Notes under the pieces: generated by a model
The model's database searches: none
What the model saw: the letters and a program-made list of their open reading frames with translations, nothing else
Told to the model about the DNA's origin: nothing
Position numbers and translations under genes: made by a program
Shown: positions 10,635 through 42,121 of the stretch, piece by piece
Numbering within the stretch: position 1 is the first letter of the stretch
How the letters are laid out: every line of letters starts with the position of its first letter
Source: Naegleria gruberi
Lineage: Eukaryota
Length of the DNA stretch: 64,000 nt
Strand: one strand, 5' to 3'
Assembly (NCBI GenBank): GCA_000004985.1
Contig: GG738879.1

Positions 10635-10708
10635 GCAGCGATAGATCAGTTGGTTAGATCGTAAGCCTAACACGCTTAAGGTCGCGGGTTCAAGCCCCGC
10701 TCGCTGTA
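10635..10708 (+). tRNA. tRNA-Val (anticodon AAC), copy 1
   Basis: GCAGCGA TA GATC AGTTGGTTA GATC G TAAGC CTAACAC GCTTA AGGTC GCGGG TTCAAGC CCCGC TCGCTGT A. Loop CTAACAC gives AAC. Identical gene at 22936. Confidence 0.9.
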
Positions 10709-11705: not shown

Positions 11706-11777
11706 GTAGGAAGACAGGGAATCGAACCCTGATCTTAGGAACCACAATCCCATGTTCTACCACTGAACTATCTCCCT
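11706..11777 (-). tRNA. tRNA-His (anticodon GTG)
   Basis: Reverse complement AGGGAGA T A GTTC AGTGGTA GAAC A TGGGA TTGTGGT TCCTA AGATC CAGGG TTCGATT CCCTG TCTTCCT A. Anticodon loop UUGUGGU (GUG, G37), discriminator A73, no encoded G-1 (eukaryotic type). Confidence 0.8.
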
Positions 11778-17624: not shown

Positions 17625-19985
17625 ATGTCTTCCAGCAATGATGAAGAACCAACAATAACAACAACCCATGTCGAAGAGCAACAATCGTCATCTAGTGATA
17701 ATTCGGATGGAAGTTCTGTTGCTGCTATTGTTGCCACTACTTCTGTTGATGCAACAATAACAACTTCTCCCGCCAATTCTATCGTAGTCGTGGAGGCCAA
17801 ACAAAAAGCCACAACACCAACTCCTTCCACACCTCAACATCCACCTCCACAACATCACTCTACACCGTCCGATTCAACATCGAGTATTGGTACACCAGTT
17901 ATTACATCGGCTGTGATTGAATCTGATGATGGCTTGTGGGTAACTGTCTATGATCCAACAACAAAGAGAAATTACTATCATAACAAGACTACCAATGAAA
18001 CAACATGGAGTTTACCTATGAATCTTTCGTCACCTAATTTGGGTGCACATTTACGTAGTCAGAGTAGTATTGGTGAAGAAATTCAAAGAGTTGTTAGTAC
18101 TAGTACACCAAGTGCTACTCCTAAAACTCCTGGAGGAAATCATGAGGCTTTGGTTCCTCAATCTGAAAAGGTTGACCGTACACGTCATTCAGGTGGACAT
18201 CAACGTAGTTTATCTCAAGATGGCACTGTATCTAATTTAAAGAGCCGAGTTTCACATTTACACTCTATTCCTATCAATGTTAAAAAGGAACTTGATAATA
18301 ATGATCCACCAATTATTGCCATGTCAATGGATGACCGTTCAGGATTATTTACCAGATCTCAGGCTAATAGTGATGATGAGGAAACACCAATTACTATTGA
18401 AGAAAATCCAACACCAAGACAATTGGATCATGGTCAAATTGTTTTTGCAACCACTCCAAATGTTGTTGCTGAACCACCTAAAACAACTCCAGTAACTACA
18501 CCTTCTGCTTCTAACGAAGGAGAATTAGAGGATGGATGGGAAGCTACAATTGACCCATCTACTGGACGTACTTACTATTTCCATAGACAAACTCAAAAAT
18601 CTTCTTGGGATAGACCTGTCAAAAAATCAGGAGCTTCTGTAGCTACAGTCTCTACTGCAACAGTTTCTACCCCTGTTGCTGCAGCTTCTACAACAATTTC
18701 CACACCAAGTGAATCACACGAACCAGAATCTGATTTGCTTCCTAGAATTGCACCAGGAGATCATACCTTGCTCAAATACGGAAAGGCCAATTTCCAAAAA
18801 ATCAAGAAGGGTTTCTTCAAAACCTCAGTTAAGGTTGAAAAGTTGATTGAATTTTCAAAGGATAGATTAAATCAAACATTGCATCCAATCAAATTGGAGC
18901 AACATCAAGAAAAGGCTCTCAGATGTTTCGAACTTATTCAATTATTTATGGGAGATAGAAATTTGGAAAAGTGTTCTCCAACAGTCAAACAAATTGTCAA
19001 GTCTGGTACCAATGTTCATGATTTCTTCCTCTCTAAGGAAATTCTCCAAATTGCCCTTCTCAACGTTCCAATCAGAAATGAAATTGTAATCTACTTGTGC
19101 AAACAAACCAATAATCATGCCAAGATTGAAAATGCTCTTAAAGGTGTACAATTACTTGGTTTGATGCTCTCTGCATTCCCTCCAACTACATATGATTTGC
19201 AAGAGGCTGTATTATATTATTTACAAAAAACACTCGTTACCCACCCAAAAATTGGTCGTGATGATCGTATCAGACAATTCTCACTCCTCTGTGAAAAACA
19301 CTTAAGAAGATCTTGTGTAACAGGTCCAAGAAAAACTCTTCCATCAGATAATGAAATCAAGAACATGTCTAATCCAAATCCACCAGAACCAATTTTCGGT
19401 GTTTCAATTTCAGAATATTGGAGATGGCAAAAGGACAAGTTCCCTAATGGGGACCAAGCCAAACCATTTATTCTTAACTTGTTGAGTGAAGCCCTTAAAA
19501 AGACTAATTTATATACTGTAGAAGGTATTTTCAGATTGCCTGGTGATGTTTCTCGTGTTGAAGGTCTTAAAGAAAAGCTCTGTAAATCCAACTTTGAAAT
19601 TAACGAGAAGGATCCTCATGTATGTGCCTCCTTGTTCAAATTATGGTTGCGTGAATTGGCAGACCCTCTCATTCCTCATCGCCTCTATGAACATTGTGTC
19701 TCTGTTGCCAATGATGAAAAGCAATCAGCAGCTGTTTTAGATCAGTTACCAGCTGGTAATAGAGCTATCTTGGTATTTGTTTTGGACTTTTTATCTGACA
19801 TGCTTCCTCATTCAAAGAAGACTATGATGACAAGCGAAAACTTGGCTGTTGTTTTCTGTCCAAACATTTTAAGATCACAATCATCAGATCCAATGGCTAT
19901 CATGAGAAATGCTGCCTCAGAAAAACAATTCGTTCGTAATCTCATTCTCCACTGTGCTCACCAAAAGGGTATTGCAGAGAAATAA
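17625..19985 (+). CDS. RhoGAP with two WW domains and a MyTH4 domain (ARHGAP39/Vilse-like architecture)
   Basis: 786-aa single exon. WW1 GLWVTVYDPTTKRNYYHNKTTNETTWSLP; WW2 GWEATIDPSTGRTYYFHRQTQKSSWDRP. MyTH4-like block (…LRCFELIQLFMGDR…ILQIALLNVPIRNEIVIYLCKQ…). RhoGAP with arginine finger GIFRLPGD, …LFKLWLRELADPLIP. Confidence 0.85.
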   Translation: MSSSNDEEPTITTTHVEEQQSSSSDNSDGSSVAAIVATTSVDATITTSPANSIVVVEAKQKATTPTPSTPQHPPPQHHSTPSDSTSSIGTPVITSAVIESDDGLWVTVYDPTTKRNYYHNKTTNETTWSLPMNLSSPNLGAHLRSQSSIGEEIQRVVSTSTPSATPKTPGGNHEALVPQSEKVDRTRHSGGHQRSLSQDGTVSNLKSRVSHLHSIPINVKKELDNNDPPIIAMSMDDRSGLFTRSQANSDDEETPITIEENPTPRQLDHGQIVFATTPNVVAEPPKTTPVTTPSASNEGELEDGWEATIDPSTGRTYYFHRQTQKSSWDRPVKKSGASVATVSTATVSTPVAAASTTISTPSESHEPESDLLPRIAPGDHTLLKYGKANFQKIKKGFFKTSVKVEKLIEFSKDRLNQTLHPIKLEQHQEKALRCFELIQLFMGDRNLEKCSPTVKQIVKSGTNVHDFFLSKEILQIALLNVPIRNEIVIYLCKQTNNHAKIENALKGVQLLGLMLSAFPPTTYDLQEAVLYYLQKTLVTHPKIGRDDRIRQFSLLCEKHLRRSCVTGPRKTLPSDNEIKNMSNPNPPEPIFGVSISEYWRWQKDKFPNGDQAKPFILNLLSEALKKTNLYTVEGIFRLPGDVSRVEGLKEKLCKSNFEINEKDPHVCASLFKLWLRELADPLIPHRLYEHCVSVANDEKQSAAVLDQLPAGNRAILVFVLDFLSDMLPHSKKTMMTSENLAVVFCPNILRSQSSDPMAIMRNAASEKQFVRNLILHCAHQKGIAEK

Positions 19986-22935: not shown

Positions 22936-23009
22936 GCAGCGATAGATCAGTTGGTTAGATCGTAAGCCTAACACGCTTAAGGTCGCGGGTTCAAGCCCCG
23001 CTCGCTGTA
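22936..23009 (+). tRNA. tRNA-Val (anticodon AAC), copy 2
   Basis: Sequence identical to the 10635 copy. Shares about 35 bp of 5' flank (atattaaggaga…atgaatgtaa) and the 44-bp 3' element. Confidence 0.9.
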
Positions 23010-37282: not shown

Positions 37283-38683
37283 TTACTTTGAAAAATAAGC
37301 GGCATTGTACAATTGATCATACTCCAGAACACATCCAGATTTTCGTTTCTTGGTCCAAGTTGCAGTGTCAAAGAAAAAGTAGGTTCCCTTTTCAGCTTTG
37401 GCATTTTGTTGGAAATCATTTACACTTTGATCTCTAATGAGCCACAATTGAGTTGGTTTGTGATATTTCCATCCTCTCTTTGACAGCTCTCTTGCAGCTA
37501 CAATTTGTAGCACATCACGTGGCATTGTGTAAAAGATATACAGCAGTGTTTCTTCTGTGAATTTGTCAACATGGAAGTCTTGTAACTGCACAGTAACCTT
37601 ATAACATTCTGGTAATTTGTAATCAGGTATAACATTTGATGGAGGAACCTCAGCAAAGGGAGAAGCAAAATTCTGATACAAAAACTCCGAAGCATTCAAG
37701 TTTAATCCTAGAGAGGTAAGATCCAATCCAAGAGCAAGAGCAGTCAAATCCGAATCTTTAGAAGCAAATGTATTGCTCAAACCTAACAGACCAAACTTAT
37801 CATCAGCAGTAGCAGTACGTTGTTGAATTGGTTGTTGTTGTTGTAAAGCTTGTTGTTGTTGAATTTGATAATACCTTTGTTCATATAGTAAAAACTCTTG
37901 TAAATGTTGTTCTATAGCGGAATTATCATAACCATTTTGTTGAGCAATATTTCTAACTTGTATCAGAGCTGCTTGTCTTTGTTGAGGATTAGCATTCAAA
38001 ACATTTCTGAAAATGTTATGTTGAGGGAGTGGAGGAAGTTTTTGGTTCATTGATGGATATTGACCGAATTGTTGTTGTCCATTAATCATTGACAAGATGG
38101 ATTCCGAAGGTCTATAGGAATCTCCTGTTGATGATGAAAGCAAATTTGATCCATTAGCGTTTGGTGTTGTCGATCTGTGAATCAATTGTTGTGTTGGAGA
38201 TACACTTGTTGGTGGATATTTGTTTGTATTACCAACATTTGATGATACATTGTTTTGATTTCCTTGATTTTGGAAAATACCTTGGTTATTCATTTGGTTA
38301 TTCATACCCGTTGATCCTCTAATGATATTATTATTAACTCCTTGTTGTGTACCTGTCATTGTATTCATGTTCATTCCACGGAAGGCATTACCATTTTGTC
38401 CCAAACCAGATGAAGCCATAAAACCCATTGGTGCTTGTTGATTTAAATTTCTACCCATCATATTATTTGCTCCAATAGAATTCATACCAACACCATTATT
38501 ATTTAATGATGACCCAAATTGTTGTTGTTGTCCTAATCCATTTTGGGTCAGTGCATTCAAATAACCATTCACTTGCATTGATGATCCTCCTGATGATGGT
38601 ACATTCATTAAATTATTAGTATTACCCAGGTTTTGATTTAATCCTTGAGAGGCAGAACTAGCATACGACGATGTATTTTTCAT
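37283..38683 (-). CDS. CCR4-NOT complex subunit 2 (NOT2/NOT3/NOT5 family) homologue
   Basis: Single exon. Q/N/G-rich N-terminal half. C-terminal NOT box (…DFHVDKFTEETLLYIFYTMPRDVLQIVAARELSKRGWKYHKPTQLWL…TYFFFDTATWTKK…). ATG at 38683 (MKNTSSY) after aaaaaaaa. Confidence 0.8.
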   Translation of the reverse strand: MKNTSSYASSASQGLNQNLGNTNNLMNVPSSGGSSMQVNGYLNALTQNGLGQQQQFGSSLNNNGVGMNSIGANNMMGRNLNQQAPMGFMASSGLGQNGNAFRGMNMNTMTGTQQGVNNNIIRGSTGMNNQMNNQGIFQNQGNQNNVSSNVGNTNKYPPTSVSPTQQLIHRSTTPNANGSNLLSSSTGDSYRPSESILSMINGQQQFGQYPSMNQKLPPLPQHNIFRNVLNANPQQRQAALIQVRNIAQQNGYDNSAIEQHLQEFLLYEQRYYQIQQQQALQQQQPIQQRTATADDKFGLLGLSNTFASKDSDLTALALGLDLTSLGLNLNASEFLYQNFASPFAEVPPSNVIPDYKLPECYKVTVQLQDFHVDKFTEETLLYIFYTMPRDVLQIVAARELSKRGWKYHKPTQLWLIRDQSVNDFQQNAKAEKGTYFFFDTATWTKKRKSGCVLEYDQLYNAAYFSK

Positions 38684-38955
38684 TTTTTTTAAAATGTATT
38701 TTTTTAAAGTTATAAAAATGAAAAAAAGTAAAAATAGCAAGAAATATCGAGAAAATGATAAATTGTCAATTTACGAAAGAATTACTTGGTCGACTAACAA
38801 GAATTATTCACTAATGAGAGGGAAACATTGTCGAGTCTCTTTTTATTGCATTTAAATGGCACACTTCTCATTGAACTCACTTTCAAAATTTCAAATTATC
38901 AAAATTTGTGAATCTCACACATTGCTTTCAAAAAGGTGGAGCAAAATTTGGGTTT

Positions 38956-39483
38956 TTACCACTTCTTGTAGAGATCAACTCTTCTCTTGTGGTTTCTTCT
39001 CTTACCACCTCTTCTCTTATGATTCTTTCTGAACTTTTTACCATAGGTATCAATTCTCTTCTTGTGGAATCTTCTCTTACCATGTCTCTTACCGTGTCTC
39101 TTGTTCTTTCTGAACTTTTTACCATAGGTATCGATTCTCTTTCTCTTATAAATATCAATTCTCTTCTTGTTGTGTCTTCTCTTTCCGTATCTCTTACCAT
39201 GTCTTCTCTTATTAACTCTTTTACCATAAGTATCAAACTTCTTCTTGTAAATATCGACTCTTCTCTTCTTATGGTTACGTCTTCTCTTCTTTCCATAGGA
39301 ATCAATGTACTTGTGAGGTCTTCTCTTGTGGAGGTGTCTCTTCTTGTGCTTTCTTACTCTTGGAATATAGGTTGAGAGAGTGGAAACACTTTGAGTTTCT
39401 TCTTCACCACGAACATTTCTAATGGTGAGAGCGAGGATTGTCAATGTTAAGGCAATCAATAGAATGGAAACTATTCTTTTCAT
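38956..39483 (-). CDS. secreted, extremely basic tandem-repeat protein (Lys/Arg/His with recurring (I/V)DxYGKK units)
   Basis: 175-aa ORF with signal peptide MKRIVSILLIALTLTILALTIRNVRG. The rest is about 60% K/R/H in imperfect 25-30-aa repeats (…HKKRIDTYGKKFRKNKRHGKRHGKRRF…). The opposite-strand ORF (38908..39375, S/L-rich) is an artefact of the DNA tandem repeats and lacks a signal peptide or start context. Confidence 0.5.
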   Translation of the reverse strand: MKRIVSILLIALTLTILALTIRNVRGEEETQSVSTLSTYIPRVRKHKKRHLHKRRPHKYIDSYGKKRRRNHKKRRVDIYKKKFDTYGKRVNKRRHGKRYGKRRHNKKRIDIYKRKRIDTYGKKFRKNKRHGKRHGKRRFHKKRIDTYGKKFRKNHKRRGGKRRNHKRRVDLYKKW

Positions 39484-39773
39484 TCTTGTTTTTTTTTCTT
39501 GTTGAATGATTGGAAGGAAGAGAGGGAATGAGTGAGATTTATAGTTCTTTGGGTGGGTAATGTGAAATGGTTGATCGACTTTTATGGAAAGAATGAAACT
39601 TGTCTACTTTCCATAAATGAAACATTTTTGACTTTGGAAAACTAACAAGAGAAAGAACTGTGTGGGTAATGACCGAGTTTAATGATCATCACTTTTGGGA
39701 TTTTCAGTATAAATAGGGCATTCCTTATTCGAATCAATTGAGAAGATTCTTCAAAATATTCAAATGTTGTGTT

Positions 39774-42121
39774 CTATCCAAAAACAATGTACATGACGCA
39801 CAACAGACCAATCAAAATCACAGAAAGTGCAACATTCAATACGTGATCAAAGTGATTCTTAATAGTTTCCTTAAATGATGTTTGTTGATTGTAAAACTCT
39901 CTTGCTGATTTCCATAATTGAGAATAATTCAACGTCAAATTTTCAGTCTTTTCAGGAGTGGATGATCCAGTTATATAAGAAATCAAGAATAAACAAATAA
40001 TACTCAACAATGCCATACAAGCACTAAAATGCAAAAAGTTTGATCTGATAAATATTTGTACTAAAGTTCTAGACCAATCTGGAAGTTTGTAAATATCAAA
40101 TGCATTACTATTGAACATGGCTTCCAAGAATAATCTCGATAATCCAATAGTATTTCCCAAAATTAAAGTGAATAAACTTCCATAATGGTTTGGTGTCTTT
40201 GAGAGAATTCCCATCAAGAAAATGACAGCAATTGGAGCTGCCAAATAGCCCATAACTTTGTGAGTGTAAATGTAAAGTTGTTTGGAGAGGACTTGAACGA
40301 CTGGAATGAAACCAAGACCAACTACTGTAACAACAGCACCTGCAATCTTACCAACAATGACATATTCGGTATTTCTGTTTGGTAGTTCAGAAGTTGAATC
40401 TTCGGCAGCTTCTCTTGGAGTTGATGGAGAATCATTCATTGGATCCAATTCTCCCAAATCAGAAACTGAAGCAGATGGTTTAGTTTCATCCAATTGAATT
40501 TCAATTTCTTCTTCAATTCTTGGTTCATTCTTTTCTTCAATGACTTCGATATTAGATTCAGCATTCAATTTAACATTTTCAGCCAATTTCTTTCTATCAA
40601 AATACTCTCTCACTACTCTATACAAATCCATTGTAAACAAAGTACTCGATGAGTGGAAAATACTTGCTAAACTACTCATCAAGGCAGCCAAAATGGCAGC
40701 AATAATTAAACCCTTAACACCAACAGGAACCAACTTGTCAATTAAAAGAATGTAAGCCACATTAGGATCCTTTTCAACTTGAGGAATCAAAACTCTGGCA
40801 ATCATTCCAGGAATAACCATTAAAAAGAATGGTAAAAATTTGAGGAAAGCTGCCAAGATACATCCTCGAATGGCATTAGCAAGATCTTTGGCAGCAAGTG
40901 CTCTTTGTACAATGGATTGATCTGTACACCAATACCTATTATTATTATTAAAAAATAAGAATATTCAATTATTACAATAAAAATTGTAAAATTTCAATAA
41001 ATTCAAAACATACCACATTGAAGTCCAAGACATTCCCAAAAAGACTCCAGTCACTGGGAAATCATGATGCCAAGGGGGTTGAAACAAGTGTAACATACTG
41101 TCTGGGAGTTGTTCTTTCAGATGTGAATAGCCACCAACTTGAACCATTCCTTGTGCATAAACTAACAAGGCACCAATAACTAAAACACCAGTTTGCAAAA
41201 CTTCAGTATAAATAACTGCACTCAATCCTCCCAAAACTGTATAAATACCTGTTGCTACGACCACTGCTGCAGCAGAAACCCAAATATTCCATCCTAAAAG
41301 TCTATTCGAAACCATTTCCAATAATTCTCAATAAATTCCACAACAATTTCAATTACTTACACTTGGAAAACCACAACACCAGCATAAATAGAAACACTAA
41401 TCTTTGTCATGACATACATTACCAAAGATAACAAACTCAAATACATTCTGGAAGTTCTATCAAATCTCTTTTCAATAAATTCAGGTAATGTATAAACTTT
41501 AGTTTTCAAATAGAATGGAATAAACAACCATCCCAACACTAAAATCCAAACAGGTGAATACAATTCTGCCATGCCAACTGCCAATCCAATTGAAGCTCCA
41601 CTCGATGACAGTCCAATAATATGTTCTGCTCCAATATTTGAGGCAAATAATGAACAAGCAATAGCAATGGCTCCAATATTACCATTGGCAAGGAAAAAGT
41701 CTTTGGAACTCTTCTTTTCTTCCTCTTGTTTTGTGTTATCTTCCTTGTTTTCAACAGACACCACTACTCCTTCGGAATTGTTTTGATCCAAAGCAGTACT
41801 AGAGCCACTAATACTTGTGGCCACATCATAGAGAGAATCCTTGGAAGGAATTGGTTGCATGGCCACATCACCATACGGATCATGTTCCTTTAAATGTTGT
41901 GGTATTTGCTGCTGATTAGACTTGAATTTAGATTGCAACCACCGATAGACTCTTTTGATATATGACCACAATGAAGAGTGCAATCCAACAATAATAACCA
42001 ATATAAAGTAAATGACAATCACGGCAATATCCAATGGTTGAAGAGGTGAAGCACCCGATGATGTAGATGATGATGATGAACTTGTTGACATTCTTTTATT
42101 TAAATTGATGTATTTCAACAA
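39774..42121 (-). CDS. sodium:solute symporter (SSF/SLC5 family); exons 42121..41361, 41301..41014, 40935..39774
   Basis: GTAAGT donor at 41360 and cgaatAG acceptor at 41302 (59-nt intron, phase 2: …VVVFQ-V-LLGWNIW). GTATGT donor at 41013 and ataatAG acceptor at 40936 (78-nt intron, phase 2: …TSM-W-YWCTDQSIVQRALAAK). SSF motifs FFLANGNIGAIAIACSLFASNIGAEHIIGLSSSG, YTLPEFIEKRF, GGLSAVIYTEVLQT. Two long hydrophilic insert loops. Confidence 0.85.

What the first reader, a model, noticed from the sequence alone, without database searches (positions are those of the whole stretch)
38956..39483. Secreted, hyper-basic tandem-repeat protein (K/R/H about 60%, recurring DxYGKK units)
After a clean signal peptide the protein is essentially a cationic polymer built from about 6 imperfect repeats (…KKRIDTYGKKFRKN(K)RHGKRHGKRRF…). 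Lys plus Tyr/Gly repeats recall secreted adhesive or wall proteins. Such composition also fits a poly-cationic antimicrobial peptide precursor, possibly cleaved at KR/RR dibasic sites, which would be plausible for a bacterivorous amoeba. Because the DNA is repetitive, both strands are open. I chose the minus strand for its signal peptide and stop context.
Basis: partly seen in the sequence, partly recalled or inferred. Interest (0 to 1): 0.55.

Follow-up and report, generated by a model that had tools for sequence, protein, structure and literature searches.

The report
Naegleria secreted polycationic repeat protein
This is a real, separate gene of the amoeba Naegleria gruberi that encodes a signal-peptide-bearing, disordered, extremely positively charged repeat protein from a small Naegleria-only family. 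The public annotation has wrongly fused it to the neighbouring NOT2 gene, and its function is still untested.

Summary
Window 38956-39483 (-) is a 175-aa ORF with a hydrophobic leader, a short acidic/neutral spacer and a 134-aa domain that is 60% K/R/H. That domain carries seven [IVF]-D-x-Y-[GK]-[KR] motifs.

The window is Naegleria gruberi. The ORF is one of five N. gruberi paralogues on five scaffolds (NAEGRDRAFT_71365, 71069, 68008, 68479). A syntenic His-rich orthologue and one further relative occur in environmental Naegleria contigs. Nothing else among 1.84 billion representative proteins matches.

The minus-strand frame is coding:
- Leader codons have dN/dS about 0.09 at dS about 0.8.
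- A second strain has no differences in the ORF but 10 in the next 272 nt.
- Codon bias is the strongest of the ORFs compared in the window.

GenBank model NAEGRDRAFT_50395 splices residues 1-131 onto the downstream NOT2 gene. NOT2 orthologues lack that extension, and the paralogues end at the same C-terminal motif as the full ORF, so the fusion is almost certainly an artefact.

The predicted mature protein is about 19 kDa, net +58 (+70 at pH 5), disordered and not amphipathic. My best guess is a secreted or phagosomal protamine/histatin-like polycation that binds bacterial or other polyanions. This is inferred only. Adhesive or cyst-matrix and peptide-precursor readings remain open.

The parts
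38956..39483 (-). Complete coding sequence (175 codons plus TAA stop) of the polycationic repeat protein. I read it as a stand-alone, intronless gene.
   Evidence: The ORF is shown. Homologues share this frame. The identical protein is encoded on a second-strain contig, L001, with 0 differences in 528 nt. It is the only frame open in all homologous loci.
39406..39483 (-). Predicted signal peptide, residues 1-26 (MKRIVSILLIALTLTILALTIRNVRG). Predicted cleavage is after V-R-G.
   Evidence: The mean Kyte-Doolittle value of the best 15-mer is 2.84. The N-flank is +2 and the C-flank is net acidic. All paralogues have V at -3 and G/A/C at -1. Codons 1-20 have dN 0.07 and dS 0.81 against paralogue L007. 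This is the only segment AlphaFold2 models with confidence, as a helix. No dedicated signal-peptide predictor was available.
39361..39405 (-). Short acidic/neutral spacer, residues 27-41 (EEETQSVSTLSTYIP). It contains the motif STLSxY(I), conserved in every family member that has the leader.
   Evidence: In alignment A1, S34, T35, L36, S37, Y39 and I40 are invariant. The wider family is shown. Any role as a pro-piece or sorting signal is inference only.
38959..39360 (-). Polybasic repeat domain, residues 42-175: 60% K/R/H, 7 Asp and 0 Glu, 0 Cys. The predicted mature protein (residues 27-175) has net charge +58 at pH 7 and +70 at pH 5, and pI 11.8.
   Evidence: Composition and charge are. AlphaFold2 pLDDT is below 50 across most of the domain.
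39286..39306 (-). Motif copy 1, IDSYGKK (residues 60-66).
39217..39258 (-). Motif copies 2 and 3, VDIYKKK and FDTYGKR (residues 76-89, adjacent).
39115..39159 (-). Motif copies 4 and 5, IDIYKRK, one Arg, then IDTYGKK (residues 109-123).
39034..39054 (-). Motif copy 6, IDTYGKK (residues 144-150). It belongs to the youngest DNA duplication (39023-39060 versus 39104-39141, 97% identical).
38959..38979 (-). C-terminal motif copy 7, VDLYKKW, followed by the stop. This is the family's conserved C-terminus.
   Evidence: All paralogues end in [VF]D[ILF]YK[RK]K followed by a stop. L002 ends VDFYKKK followed by TAG.
39538..39543 (-). TATAAA box 60 nt upstream of the ATG, followed by an A-rich leader. 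This is the candidate promoter of the gene itself.
   Evidence: It aligns with CT[AT]TAAAT boxes 48-55 nt upstream of the ATG in paralogue L007 and relative L002. This is a consensus match only.
38842..38847 (-). AATAAA 108 nt after the stop codon. This is a candidate polyadenylation signal lying between this gene and NOT2.
   Evidence: AATAAA also follows the stop in L007 and L002. This is weak evidence in an AT-rich genome.
38590..39092 (-). The 503-nt 'intron' of GenBank model NAEGRDRAFT_50395. Its donor is CACG|GTAAGA inside a Gly-Lys codon pair, and its acceptor is CATCAG|. I judge it spurious. It would remove the last 44 codons of this ORF, the stop, the intergenic region, and the start codon and first 31 codons of NOT2.
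   Evidence: GGTAAG occurs 4 times in the ORF simply because Gly-Lys is encoded as GGT AAG.
37283..38683 (-). Neighbouring NOT2/NOT3/NOT5-C domain gene (CCR4-NOT subunit) read from its own ATG at 38683. It is not part of the feature, but it is wrongly joined to it in the annotation.
   Evidence: Pfam PF04153 matches at E = 3e-35. The ORF is 100% identical to N. gruberi P0005 over the shared part. Orthologues start at their own Met.

Best explanation
**Shown (about 0.85-0.9 confidence)**
- Window 38956-39483 (-) is an independent protein-coding gene of Naegleria gruberi.
- Its product has a conserved N-terminal signal-peptide-like leader, a short acidic/neutral spacer with an invariant STLSxYI motif, and a 134-residue disordered polybasic domain.
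- That domain is built from seven [IVF]-D-x-Y-[GK]-[KR] motifs separated by K/R/H/N/G spacers.
- The gene belongs to a Naegleria-restricted family with five paralogues in N. gruberi.
- It is the long, His-rich member, and it has a syntenic orthologue next to NOT2 in another Naegleria.

**Inferred mechanism (the confidence score applies to this)**
- The leader takes the protein into the secretory pathway and is cleaved after V-x-(G/A/C).
- The acidic start of the mature chain helps translocation, and the STLSxYI segment may act as a sorting determinant.
- The mature polycation (about 19 kDa, about +58) is delivered to phagosomes or released.
- There it binds polyanionic targets purely by charge, as protamine, polylysine or histatins do, and not by amphipathic membrane insertion. 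The most likely targets are bacterial envelopes (LPS, teichoic acids) or nucleic acids of prey.
- The 12 His residues add about +12 charge on acidification.
- The invariant D-x-Y motifs are most simply read as processing sites or self-association 'stickers' that cut or organise the chain into units of about 7-27 residues.
For: **Gene reality and frame**
- Homologues share this frame.
- Leader codons 1-20 have dN 0.07 against dS 0.81 versus paralogue L007, and dN 0.07 against saturated dS versus L002.
- A 99.2%-identical second strain has 0 of 528 differences in the ORF and 10 of 272 just downstream.
- This is the only frame open in all four loci.
- Codon bias is AAG 89%, AGA 94% and GGT 82%, against 54%, 73% and 40% in the 20 long ORFs of the window that were compared, and the AAG bias exceeds each of them. 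The next-highest AAG users include aspartyl-tRNA synthetase.

**Independence from NOT2**
- Four paralogues are stand-alone proteins of 110-133 aa on other scaffolds. They end in the same [VF]D[IL]YK[RK]K-stop as the full ORF.
- In L006 the orthologue has its own stop 250 nt before NOT2's ATG.
- NOT2 of N. fowleri, N. lovaniensis and L006 lacks the basic extension.
- A shared TATA-like box lies upstream.

**Secretion**
- The basic n-region, 18-residue hydrophobic core and conserved V(-3)/small(-1) pattern, followed by acidic residues, are present in every full-length member.
- The flank charge difference favours a luminal C-terminus.

**Polycation acting by charge**
- Net charge is +58 at pH 7 and +70 at pH 5, and pI is 11.8.
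- AlphaFold2 gives pLDDT below 50 outside the leader.
- Hydrophobic moment is no higher than in shuffles.

**Pattern resembling host-defence gene families (from general knowledge)**
- The leader is conserved while the cationic part varies in length and composition.
- There are several dispersed paralogues, and the family is lineage-restricted.
- His enrichment is shared by the two NOT2-linked orthologues only, at 7% and 11% against 0-3%.
Against: - No expression, localisation or activity data could be reached.
- No dedicated signal-peptide predictor was run. An 18-residue core could also act as an uncleaved anchor.
- A function based on charge alone does not explain the invariant Asp and Tyr in every repeat, nor why 9 of 10 Gly are followed by K-K/R.
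- +58 is far beyond known antimicrobial peptides.
- Family members were not found in the annotated N. fowleri or N. lovaniensis proteins, nor within 10 kb of their NOT2. These species also eat bacteria, so the function is not a general requirement of bacterivory in the genus.
Confidence: 0.35

Rival explanations
1. Structural or adhesive polycation. The secreted protein forms a complex (coacervate) with an acidic partner, such as acidic polysaccharide, polyphosphate or the mucoid material of cyst pores. It would then serve as matrix or glue in substrate adhesion or in the cyst wall. Tyr-Arg/Lys contacts, or Tyr cross-links at the D-x-Y motifs, would act as stickers.
For: - The protein is secreted-type, disordered, K/R/G/Y-containing and repeat-built.
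- Regularly spaced invariant Tyr in every unit fits a sticker-and-spacer design better than a pure charge function does.
- The protein is not amphipathic.
- The family was detected only in the N. gruberi clade and not in N. fowleri or N. lovaniensis annotations. These species are described as having only a thin ectocyst (PMC8469197). I recall that N. gruberi has a more developed outer wall, but I did not verify this.
Against: - Tyr is only 5.7%, against roughly 20-30 mol% in mussel or sandcastle-worm adhesives (from memory).
- No acidic partner has been identified.
- No lectin or carbohydrate-binding domain is present (Pfam finds nothing).
- There are no expression data for encystment.
Confidence: 0.22
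2. Uncleaved type II membrane protein. The conserved 18-residue hydrophobic segment is a signal anchor. The polybasic domain would then sit on the cell or phagosome surface as a charge-based capture surface for bacteria or other anionic particles.
For: - The hydrophobic core is long for a signal peptide, at 18 residues.
- It is unusually conserved: SILLIALTL is invariant among paralogues that are otherwise 40-55% identical, and dN/dS is about 0.09.
- AlphaFold2 models residues 2-28 as one helix.
Against: - All members keep V at -3 and a small residue at -1, with a helix-breaking G/N/T stretch before it. This is the pattern expected of a signal-peptidase site.
- The conserved-leader pattern is also known from cleaved antimicrobial-peptide precursors (from general knowledge).
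Confidence: 0.1
3. Multi-copy small-peptide precursor. Dibasic cleavage plus carboxypeptidase trimming would release seven [IVF]-D-x-Y tetrapeptides. Those followed by Gly-Lys-Lys/Arg would be C-terminally amidated, as in TRH- or FMRFamide-type precursors. The products would act as signalling peptides, and the basic spacers would be discarded.
For: - The architecture is a signal peptide followed by repeated short conserved units flanked by di- or polybasic sites.
- Four of the seven units are followed by G-K-[KR].
- 9 of 10 Gly in the mature chain are followed by K-[KR], a pattern reached by 0 of 100,000 shuffles.
- D and Y are invariant while the spacers vary in length and composition.
Against: - A review of the amidating enzyme PAM states that excavates (its example is Trypanosoma) completely lack PAM (PMC6529398). 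Naegleria itself was not checked here.
- Three of the seven units, always including the C-terminal one, lack the Gly.
- The spacers remain strongly basic in all members, which a discarded spacer need not do.
- Such highly basic spacers are atypical of prohormones.
Confidence: 0.05
4. The annotation is right. Residues 1-131 are the first exon of the NOT2 gene (NAEGRDRAFT_50395), and the rest of the ORF is intronic.
For: - The GenBank/JGI model exists.
- It uses a canonical GTAAG donor and a CAG acceptor that keep the reading frame.
Against: - NOT2 orthologues in three other Naegleria start at their own Met, with a similar Ser-rich N-terminus and no basic extension.
- The 'intronic' 44 codons carry two motif copies, the GGKR block and the family C-terminus, all conserved in stand-alone paralogues.
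- Between two strains that stretch has 0 differences in 135 nt, while the following 272 nt has 10. All ten falling outside it by chance is about 0.67^10 = 0.02, by my own arithmetic.
- A signal peptide on a cytosolic or nuclear CCR4-NOT subunit makes no biological sense (established knowledge).
- GGTAAG arises four times just from Gly-Lys codons.
Confidence: 0.04
5. The ORF is a chance open frame in a purine-rich repeat, or the plus-strand Leu/Ser ORF is the real gene.
For: AAG/AGA-rich repeats keep several frames open on both strands.
Against: - Leader-region dN/dS is far below 1 at high dS.
- The family is conserved across paralogues and species in this frame only.
- The antisense frame is broken in L002.
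Confidence: 0.01

Closest known systems
N. gruberi 'predicted proteins' NAEGRDRAFT_71365 (XP_002673524), 71069 (XP_002673814), 68008 (XP_002676724) and 68479 (XP_002676161)
   Same: These are true paralogues (profile E = 1e-16 to 1e-27, and 1e-33 to 1e-54). Three of the four share the same leader, MKR[IF]VSILLIALTL. All share the [IVLF]DxY[GKR][KR] repeats, the GGK[RK] block and the C-terminal [VF]D[IL]YKRK-stop. STLSL[YF] is present in the three that have the leader.
   Different: They are shorter (110-133 aa), have 4 motif copies instead of 7, and have almost no His (0-3% against 7%). All are uncharacterised. No paper in the searched library mentions the identifiers I searched for.
Histatins (vertebrate salivary His-rich cationic peptides)
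   Same: Both are secreted through a signal peptide, disordered and rich in K/R/H/Y/G. In both, charge rises at acidic pH, and both would act without a fixed fold. (From general knowledge; works-like only.)
   Different: There is no sequence relationship, since no hit outside Naegleria was found. Histatins are 24-38 residues, not repeat polymers, and have far lower charge. His is not conserved across this family.
Protamine, polylysine and molluscidin-type dibasic-repeat antimicrobial polycations
   Same: All are non-amphipathic with very high K/R density, and their antibacterial action comes from charge binding to envelopes or nucleic acids. (From general knowledge. Molluscidin is cited as a cationic antimicrobial peptide in bioRxiv 10.64898/2026.08.23.746575.)
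   Different: Protamines are nuclear and have no signal peptide. None of these has the D-x-Y motif or a conserved leader. Activity of this protein is untested.
Diatom silaffin precursors (Sil1p)
   Same: The precursor layout is the same: a signal peptide, an acidic N-terminal part, then tandem basic repeat units of about 20-35 residues in one polypeptide. (From memory.)
   Different: Silaffin units are Ser/Lys-rich, are cleaved at RXL, and are heavily modified for silica formation. Here Ser is absent from the repeats (5 Ser, all N-terminal), Arg equals Lys, and Naegleria makes no silica.
Mussel foot proteins and sandcastle-worm cement polybasic proteins
   Same: All are secreted Lys/Gly/Tyr(/His)-containing repeat proteins that act as polycations in complex coacervates. 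(From memory.)
   Different: Tyr is about 6% here, against about 20-30 mol% in those proteins. Arg is as abundant as Lys here. No DOPA chemistry or acidic partner is known in Naegleria.
Frog-skin preprodermaseptin-type antimicrobial-peptide gene families
   Same: The evolutionary pattern is the same: a strongly conserved signal peptide and acidic start, followed by a rapidly diverging cationic part, in a multigene family. (From general knowledge; for this family.)
   Different: Those precursors release one short amphipathic helix. Here there is no amphipathicity and the domain is a long repeat.
Naegleriapores (saposin-like pore-formers of Naegleria, made from multi-peptide precursors)
   Same: They come from the same genus and are secretory-pathway antibacterial or cytolytic effectors processed from repeat precursors. 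(From memory.)
   Different: They have a Cys-rich saposin fold. This protein has no Cys and no predicted fold and no sequence similarity.

Membership tests
Naegleria [IVLF]DxY polybasic family (NAEGRDRAFT_71365/71069/68008/68479) | Significant sequence similarity over most of the length | tested here: met
   phmmer gives E = 4.9e-9 to P0001. Profile searches give E = 1e-16 to 1e-50 and 1e-33 to 1e-54.
Naegleria [IVLF]DxY polybasic family (NAEGRDRAFT_71365/71069/68008/68479) | Leader MKR[IF][VI]SILLIALTL, then a V-x-small cleavage-type site, then STLSxY | tested here: met
   Alignments A1 and A3. The exception within the family is P0046, which has an aberrant N-terminus.
Naegleria [IVLF]DxY polybasic family (NAEGRDRAFT_71365/71069/68008/68479) | Repeated [IVLF]-D-x-Y-[GKR]-[KR] motifs, with the chain ending directly after a final [VF]D[ILF]YK[KR]x | tested here: met
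   The window protein has 7 copies. The N. gruberi paralogues have 4, and P0002/P0004 have 2. The stop follows directly after the last motif in the window, L007 and L002.
Eukaryotic secretory proteins with a cleaved signal peptide | Basic n-region, hydrophobic h-region, and small or neutral residues at -3 and -1 | tested here: inconclusive
   The features are present by inspection and conserved. The 18-residue core is long, and no SignalP or DeepTMHMM was available. Cleavage is not shown.
Linear amphipathic cationic antimicrobial peptides | Net positive charge | tested here: met
   +58 at pH 7.
Linear amphipathic cationic antimicrobial peptides | Amphipathic helix or strand (high hydrophobic moment, about 30-50% hydrophobic residues) | tested here: not met
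   The maximum 11-residue hydrophobic moment is 0.72 for both helix and strand. This is equalled or exceeded in 70% and 77% of shuffles respectively.
Linear amphipathic cationic antimicrobial peptides | Demonstrated antimicrobial activity | not testable with these tools
   Needs synthetic or recombinant protein and MIC assays.
Amidated multi-copy peptide precursors (TRH/FMRFamide type) | Signal peptide plus repeated short peptide flanked by dibasic sites | tested here: met
   Seven [IVF]DxY units lie between K/R runs.
Amidated multi-copy peptide precursors (TRH/FMRFamide type) | Gly immediately before the C-terminal dibasic site of each copy | tested here: inconclusive
   Four of seven copies have it (2 of 4 in three of the four short paralogues, 3 of 4 in P0044). 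The C-terminal copy never does.
Amidated multi-copy peptide precursors (TRH/FMRFamide type) | Peptidylglycine alpha-amidating enzyme present in the organism | not tested
   The literature states that excavates (example Trypanosoma) lack PAM (PMC6529398). The N. gruberi proteome was not searched here.
Silaffins | Ser/Lys-rich repeat units (phosphoserine and modified Lys) in a silica-forming organism | tested here: not met
   No Ser occurs in the repeat domain, and Arg is as abundant as Lys. That Naegleria is not silicifying is general knowledge.
Mussel or sandcastle-worm polybasic adhesive proteins | Very high Tyr (DOPA) content together with Lys and Gly | tested here: not met
   Tyr is 5.7% and Gly 6.3%. 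The threshold is recalled from memory.
NOT2 (CCR4-NOT subunit) N-terminal region, as annotated in NAEGRDRAFT_50395 | The N-terminal extension is shared by orthologous NOT2 proteins | tested here: not met
   N. fowleri P0007, N. lovaniensis P0008 and environmental P0006 begin at their own Met without it.
Saposin-like naegleriapores | Six-Cys saposin fold | tested here: not met
   The protein has 0 Cys and no confident fold. Pfam finds no family.

The most novel reading that the evidence does not exclude
The gene is a peptide-hormone-like polyprotein of a heterolobosean amoeboflagellate. Dibasic processing would release seven copies of a conserved tetrapeptide, [IVF]-D-x-Y, some of them amidated through the Gly-Lys-Lys/Arg signal. 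These would act as secreted cell-cell or differentiation signals. That would be peptidergic signalling of the animal or Chlamydomonas type in an excavate.
Probability: 0.05. Interest if true: 0.8.

Novelty: new variant of a known kind. Interest (0 to 1): 0.4.

Why it matters
- **Annotation.** It corrects a public gene model. NAEGRDRAFT_50395 is two genes, and N. gruberi NOT2 does not carry a signal peptide.
- **A new family.** It defines an uncharacterised, genus-restricted family of secretory polycations, among the most highly charged secretory-type proteins I know of (about +58 on 149 residues). The gene's codon bias suggests high expression.
- **If antibacterial.** It would add a second, non-saposin class of effector to the feeding and defence toolkit of Naegleria. 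It would also offer simple, non-amphipathic, pH-tunable peptide units to test.
- **If structural.** It would be a protist counterpart of polycationic bioadhesives.
- **Comparative angle.** The apparent absence from the pathogenic N. fowleri lineage gives a contrast to exploit.
- **Caveat.** Function is untested, and lineage-specific low-complexity secreted proteins are common, so the finding is of moderate interest and not striking.

Tried and rejected
- **Domain and structure libraries.** Pfam on the protein gave no family. A family-profile search of PDB sequences gave no hit at E <= 1. Rfam on 38000-40500 found nothing.
- **Structure prediction.** AlphaFold2 with the 3-sequence alignment was confident only for the leader helix (mean pLDDT 50), so no fold search was run.
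- **More relatives.**
  - Two JGI metagenome scans, one with the repeat motif and one with the leader, gave no confirmed relatives.
  - A second word-indexed search with the 9-sequence profile added nothing new.
  - tblastn against 21-kb NOT2 regions of N. fowleri (two assemblies) and N. lovaniensis found no member.
- **Paralogue in the window.** None was found.
- **Expression and proteomic evidence.**
  - No paper in the searched library contains the family identifiers I searched for.
  - The supplements of the N. gruberi copper-proteomics paper hold none of the accessions. The numeric hits were coincidental. Trypsin would in any case shred this protein.
  - A look-up of the stand-alone NOT2 protein in assemblies or transcripts found nothing on record.
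  - The genomic loci of P0001, P0044 and P0045 are not on record.
- **Amphipathicity.** The hydrophobic-moment scan was no better than shuffles, so I rejected the classical amphipathic antimicrobial-peptide mechanism.
- **Segmental duplication.** Both this gene and paralogue L007 have an RCC1-like gene nearby. These neighbours are not similar (E > 0.08), so I rejected a shared duplication.
- **Other literature.**
  - The Naegleria plus cationic-peptide search returned only work on exogenous peptides applied to N. gruberi.
  - The encystment RNA-seq search gave nothing for Naegleria.
Full report
**1. What is in the sequence**

Window 38956-39483 on the minus strand is an ATG-to-TAA ORF of 175 codons. 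The product is MKRIVSILLIALTLTILALTIRNVRG / EEETQSVSTLSTYIP / a 134-residue basic domain.

Over the whole precursor K is 21%, R 20% and H 7%. K+R+H is 59.7% of residues 42-175.

The basic domain contains seven copies of [IVF]-D-x-Y-[GK]-[KR]:
- IDSYGKK
- VDIYKKK
- FDTYGKR
- IDIYKRK
- IDTYGKK (twice)
- VDLYKKW, at the very C-terminus

In 100,000 composition-preserving shuffles the maximum was two copies.

At the DNA level the units start 69-105 nt apart. The youngest pair (39023-39060 and 39104-39141) is 97% identical. TRF sees periods of 39 and 12 nt.

**2. Organism and annotation**

The downstream ORF 37283-38683 (-) has a NOT2/NOT3/NOT5 C-terminal domain. It is 100% identical to a Naegleria gruberi protein (P0005, scaffold 384 kb). 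It is only 53% identical to the N. fowleri and N. lovaniensis orthologues. The window is therefore N. gruberi.

P0005 (NAEGRDRAFT_50395, XP_002675247, D2VKU9) starts with residues 1-131 of the basic ORF and then continues in NOT2. The model uses a donor CACG|GTAAGA (last exon base 39093) and an acceptor CATCAG| (38590). This is a 503-nt 'intron' that swallows the following:
- the last 44 codons of the ORF and its stop
- the intergenic region
- NOT2's own ATG and its first 31 codons

I consider this a fusion artefact for six reasons:
- **(i)** NOT2 of N. fowleri, N. lovaniensis and an environmental Naegleria (P0006) begins at its own Met. Each has a comparable Ser-rich N-terminus and no basic extension.
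- **(ii)** The discarded 44 codons carry two motif copies, the GGKR block and the C-terminal VDLYKK. Stand-alone paralogues conserve all of these.
- **(iii)** In contig L006 the orthologous basic gene sits directly upstream of NOT2. It has its own stop, and 250 nt separate it from NOT2's ATG.
- **(iv)** Between the window and a 99.2%-identical second strain (L001), the ORF has 0 differences in 528 nt. That includes the 135 nt that would be intronic. The next 272 nt has 10.
- **(v)** GGTAAG arises four times in the ORF simply from Gly-Lys codons.
- **(vi)** A signal peptide on a CCR4-NOT subunit is biologically implausible (established knowledge).

A TATAAA box lies 60 nt upstream of the ATG. 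It aligns with the equivalent box of two relatives. AATAAA lies 108 nt after the stop. Both fit an independent transcription unit, though only as consensus matches.

**3. The family**

A word-indexed search found one N. gruberi paralogue and one environmental protein. An exhaustive HMMER profile search of 1.84 billion representative proteins found only five hits. These resolve as follows:
- the fused model itself
- NAEGRDRAFT_71365, 71069, 68008 and 68479, which are four 'predicted proteins' of 110-133 aa on four other scaffolds
- the environmental P0002

A profile search of the 5.8-billion-cluster collection added nothing. Two JGI metagenome scans also found nothing.

All full-length members share these features:
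- the leader MKR[IF][VI]SILLIALTL
- a V-x-(G/A/C) site followed by Glu-rich residues
- STLSxY(I)
- the D-x-Y repeats
- a stop directly after a final [VF]D[ILF]YK[KR]x

The apparent C-terminal extension of P0002 and P0004 is read-through of a TAG stop by the metagenome gene caller.

The window copy is the longest (7 motifs against 4) and is His-rich (7%). Its syntenic orthologue in L006 is also His-rich (11%). The other members have 0-3% His.

No member lies within 10 kb of NOT2 in N. fowleri or N. lovaniensis, where a PhyH gene occupies the upstream position. None of their annotated proteins was hit either. Whole genomes of those species could not be scanned.

**4. It is a real, constrained, probably well-expressed coding gene**

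- Leader codons 1-20 differ from paralogue L007 at 8 synonymous and 3 non-synonymous sites (dS 0.81, dN 0.07). Against L002 the synonymous sites are saturated and dN is 0.07.
- Only this frame is open in all four loci. The antisense frame is broken in L002.
- Codon usage is the most biased of the 21 ORFs compared in the window: AAG 89%, AGA 94% and GGT 82%, against 54%, 73% and 40%. The next-highest AAG users include aspartyl-tRNA synthetase. This is consistent with translational selection, although repeat homogenisation could contribute.

**5. Anatomy and physical properties**

- The N-flank has charge +2. The 15 residues after the hydrophobic core are net acidic in every member. This predicts a luminal or extracellular C-terminus.
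- Cleavage after G26 would give a 149-residue, 19-kDa protein with net +58 at pH 7 and +70 at pH 5, pI 11.8 and no Cys.
- AlphaFold2 is confident only for the leader helix. The rest has pLDDT below 50.
- The hydrophobic moment for helix or strand is no higher than in shuffles.
- Nine of ten Gly residues are followed by K-[KR], a pattern reached by 0 of 100,000 shuffles.
- There are no Pfam, PDB-sequence or Rfam matches.

**6. Mechanism**

Shown:
- The gene is independent.
- The leader is secretory-type.
- The product is a disordered repeat polycation.
- The family is restricted to Naegleria.

Inferred (confidence about 0.35):
- The leader is cleaved and the protein is secreted or routed to phagosomes.
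- There it binds polyanionic targets, most plausibly bacterial prey, by charge, as protamine, polylysine or histatins do.
- His protonation boosts the charge in acidic compartments.
- The D-x-Y motifs act as processing sites or as stickers.

The conserved leader with a variable cationic part, the dispersed paralogues and the lineage restriction resemble host-defence gene families. That resemblance comes from general knowledge and was not tested here.

Rivals:
- **Adhesive or cyst-matrix polycation that coacervates with an acidic partner (0.22).** The invariant, regularly spaced Tyr fits this reading, but Tyr is only about 6%.
- **Uncleaved type II anchor displaying the polycation (0.10).** The core is long and unusually conserved, but the -3/-1 pattern is also conserved.
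- **Multi-copy tetrapeptide precursor with Gly-dibasic amidation signals (0.05).** The Gly-K-K/R regularity and the invariant D/Y fit. However, excavates are reported to lack the amidating enzyme (PMC6529398), and three of the seven copies lack Gly.
- **The annotated NOT2 fusion (0.04).**
- **A chance ORF (0.01).**

**7. Comparison with known systems**

The protein is a member only of its own uncharacterised Naegleria family. It may work like histatin, protamine or molluscidin-type polycations. In layout it resembles silaffin precursors or polybasic bioadhesives. It fails the defining features that could be tested for each of the following:
- amphipathic antimicrobial peptides
- silaffins
- mussel-type adhesives
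- saposin-like naegleriapores
- the NOT2 N-terminus

These tests are listed in the membership table.

**8. Verdict**

The functional ideas remain plausible but untested, and the dibasic-cleavage argument carries no information. The finding is a new, lineage-specific variant of the general class of secreted polycationic repeat proteins, and it comes with a clear annotation correction. Interest is moderate (0.4). The charge density and the strict D-x-Y / Gly-Lys-Lys regularities are unusual and unexplained. However, orphan low-complexity secreted proteins are common, and no functional evidence exists yet.

Noticed in passing
window 37283-39483 (-): GenBank/JGI model NAEGRDRAFT_50395 (XP_002675247, D2VKU9, 565 aa) is a chimera. 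It joins residues 1-131 of the basic secreted protein to the NOT2 gene through a 503-nt 'intron' (38590-39092). N. gruberi NOT2 should start at the ATG at 38683.
   Followed up: yes
L002 526-528 (ENA ERZ4903137 contig); proteins P0002/P0004: The database proteins run about 24 residues past a TAG stop (the gene caller read TAG as Gln). The real C-terminus is VDFYKKK (VDLYKKK in P0004), as in the rest of the family.
   Followed up: yes
window 39774-42121 (-) versus L004/L005: Local gene order differs between species. In N. gruberi the sodium:solute symporter, the basic gene and NOT2 are adjacent on one strand. In N. fowleri and N. lovaniensis a PhyH-domain gene lies upstream of NOT2, and the symporter lies four genes away on the opposite strand. 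The WW-MyTH4-RhoGAP gene (window 17625-19985) is nearby in all three.
   Followed up: partly
window 39774-40856 and 41357-42121 (-): The sodium:solute symporter (PF00474) is split into two ORFs about 500 nt apart (profile positions 1-113 and 237-332). This implies intron(s) or a small middle exon. The gene structure was not resolved.
   Followed up: no
protein P0046 (NAEGRDRAFT_68479), DNA not available: This paralogue has the family's basic domain, but an unrelated Thr/Gln-repeat N-terminus (MVMGFRHTQTQTQTHTQ...) replaces the signal peptide. It is either a mis-modelled start or a decaying copy.
   Followed up: no
window 10635-10708 and 22936-23009 (+); 2147-2217 and 11706-11777 (-): Four tRNA genes are present: tRNA-Val(AAC) twice, about 12 kb apart, plus tRNA-Asp(GTC) and tRNA-His(GTG).
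   Followed up: no
L001 and L007 (ENA ERZ929261, run ERR1078381, PRJEB11402): A sample labelled as a metagenome contains contigs 99.2% identical to N. gruberi. These carry both this gene and the 71365 paralogue (2 amino-acid differences). It therefore represents a second N. gruberi-like strain that is useful for polymorphism tests.
   Followed up: partly
window 38532 region (NOT2 coding, minus strand): The second strain has a 6-nt in-frame insertion in the low-complexity N-terminal half of NOT2, and a T22A change at 38620. This indicates indel-prone Gln/Asn-rich coding sequence.
   Followed up: no
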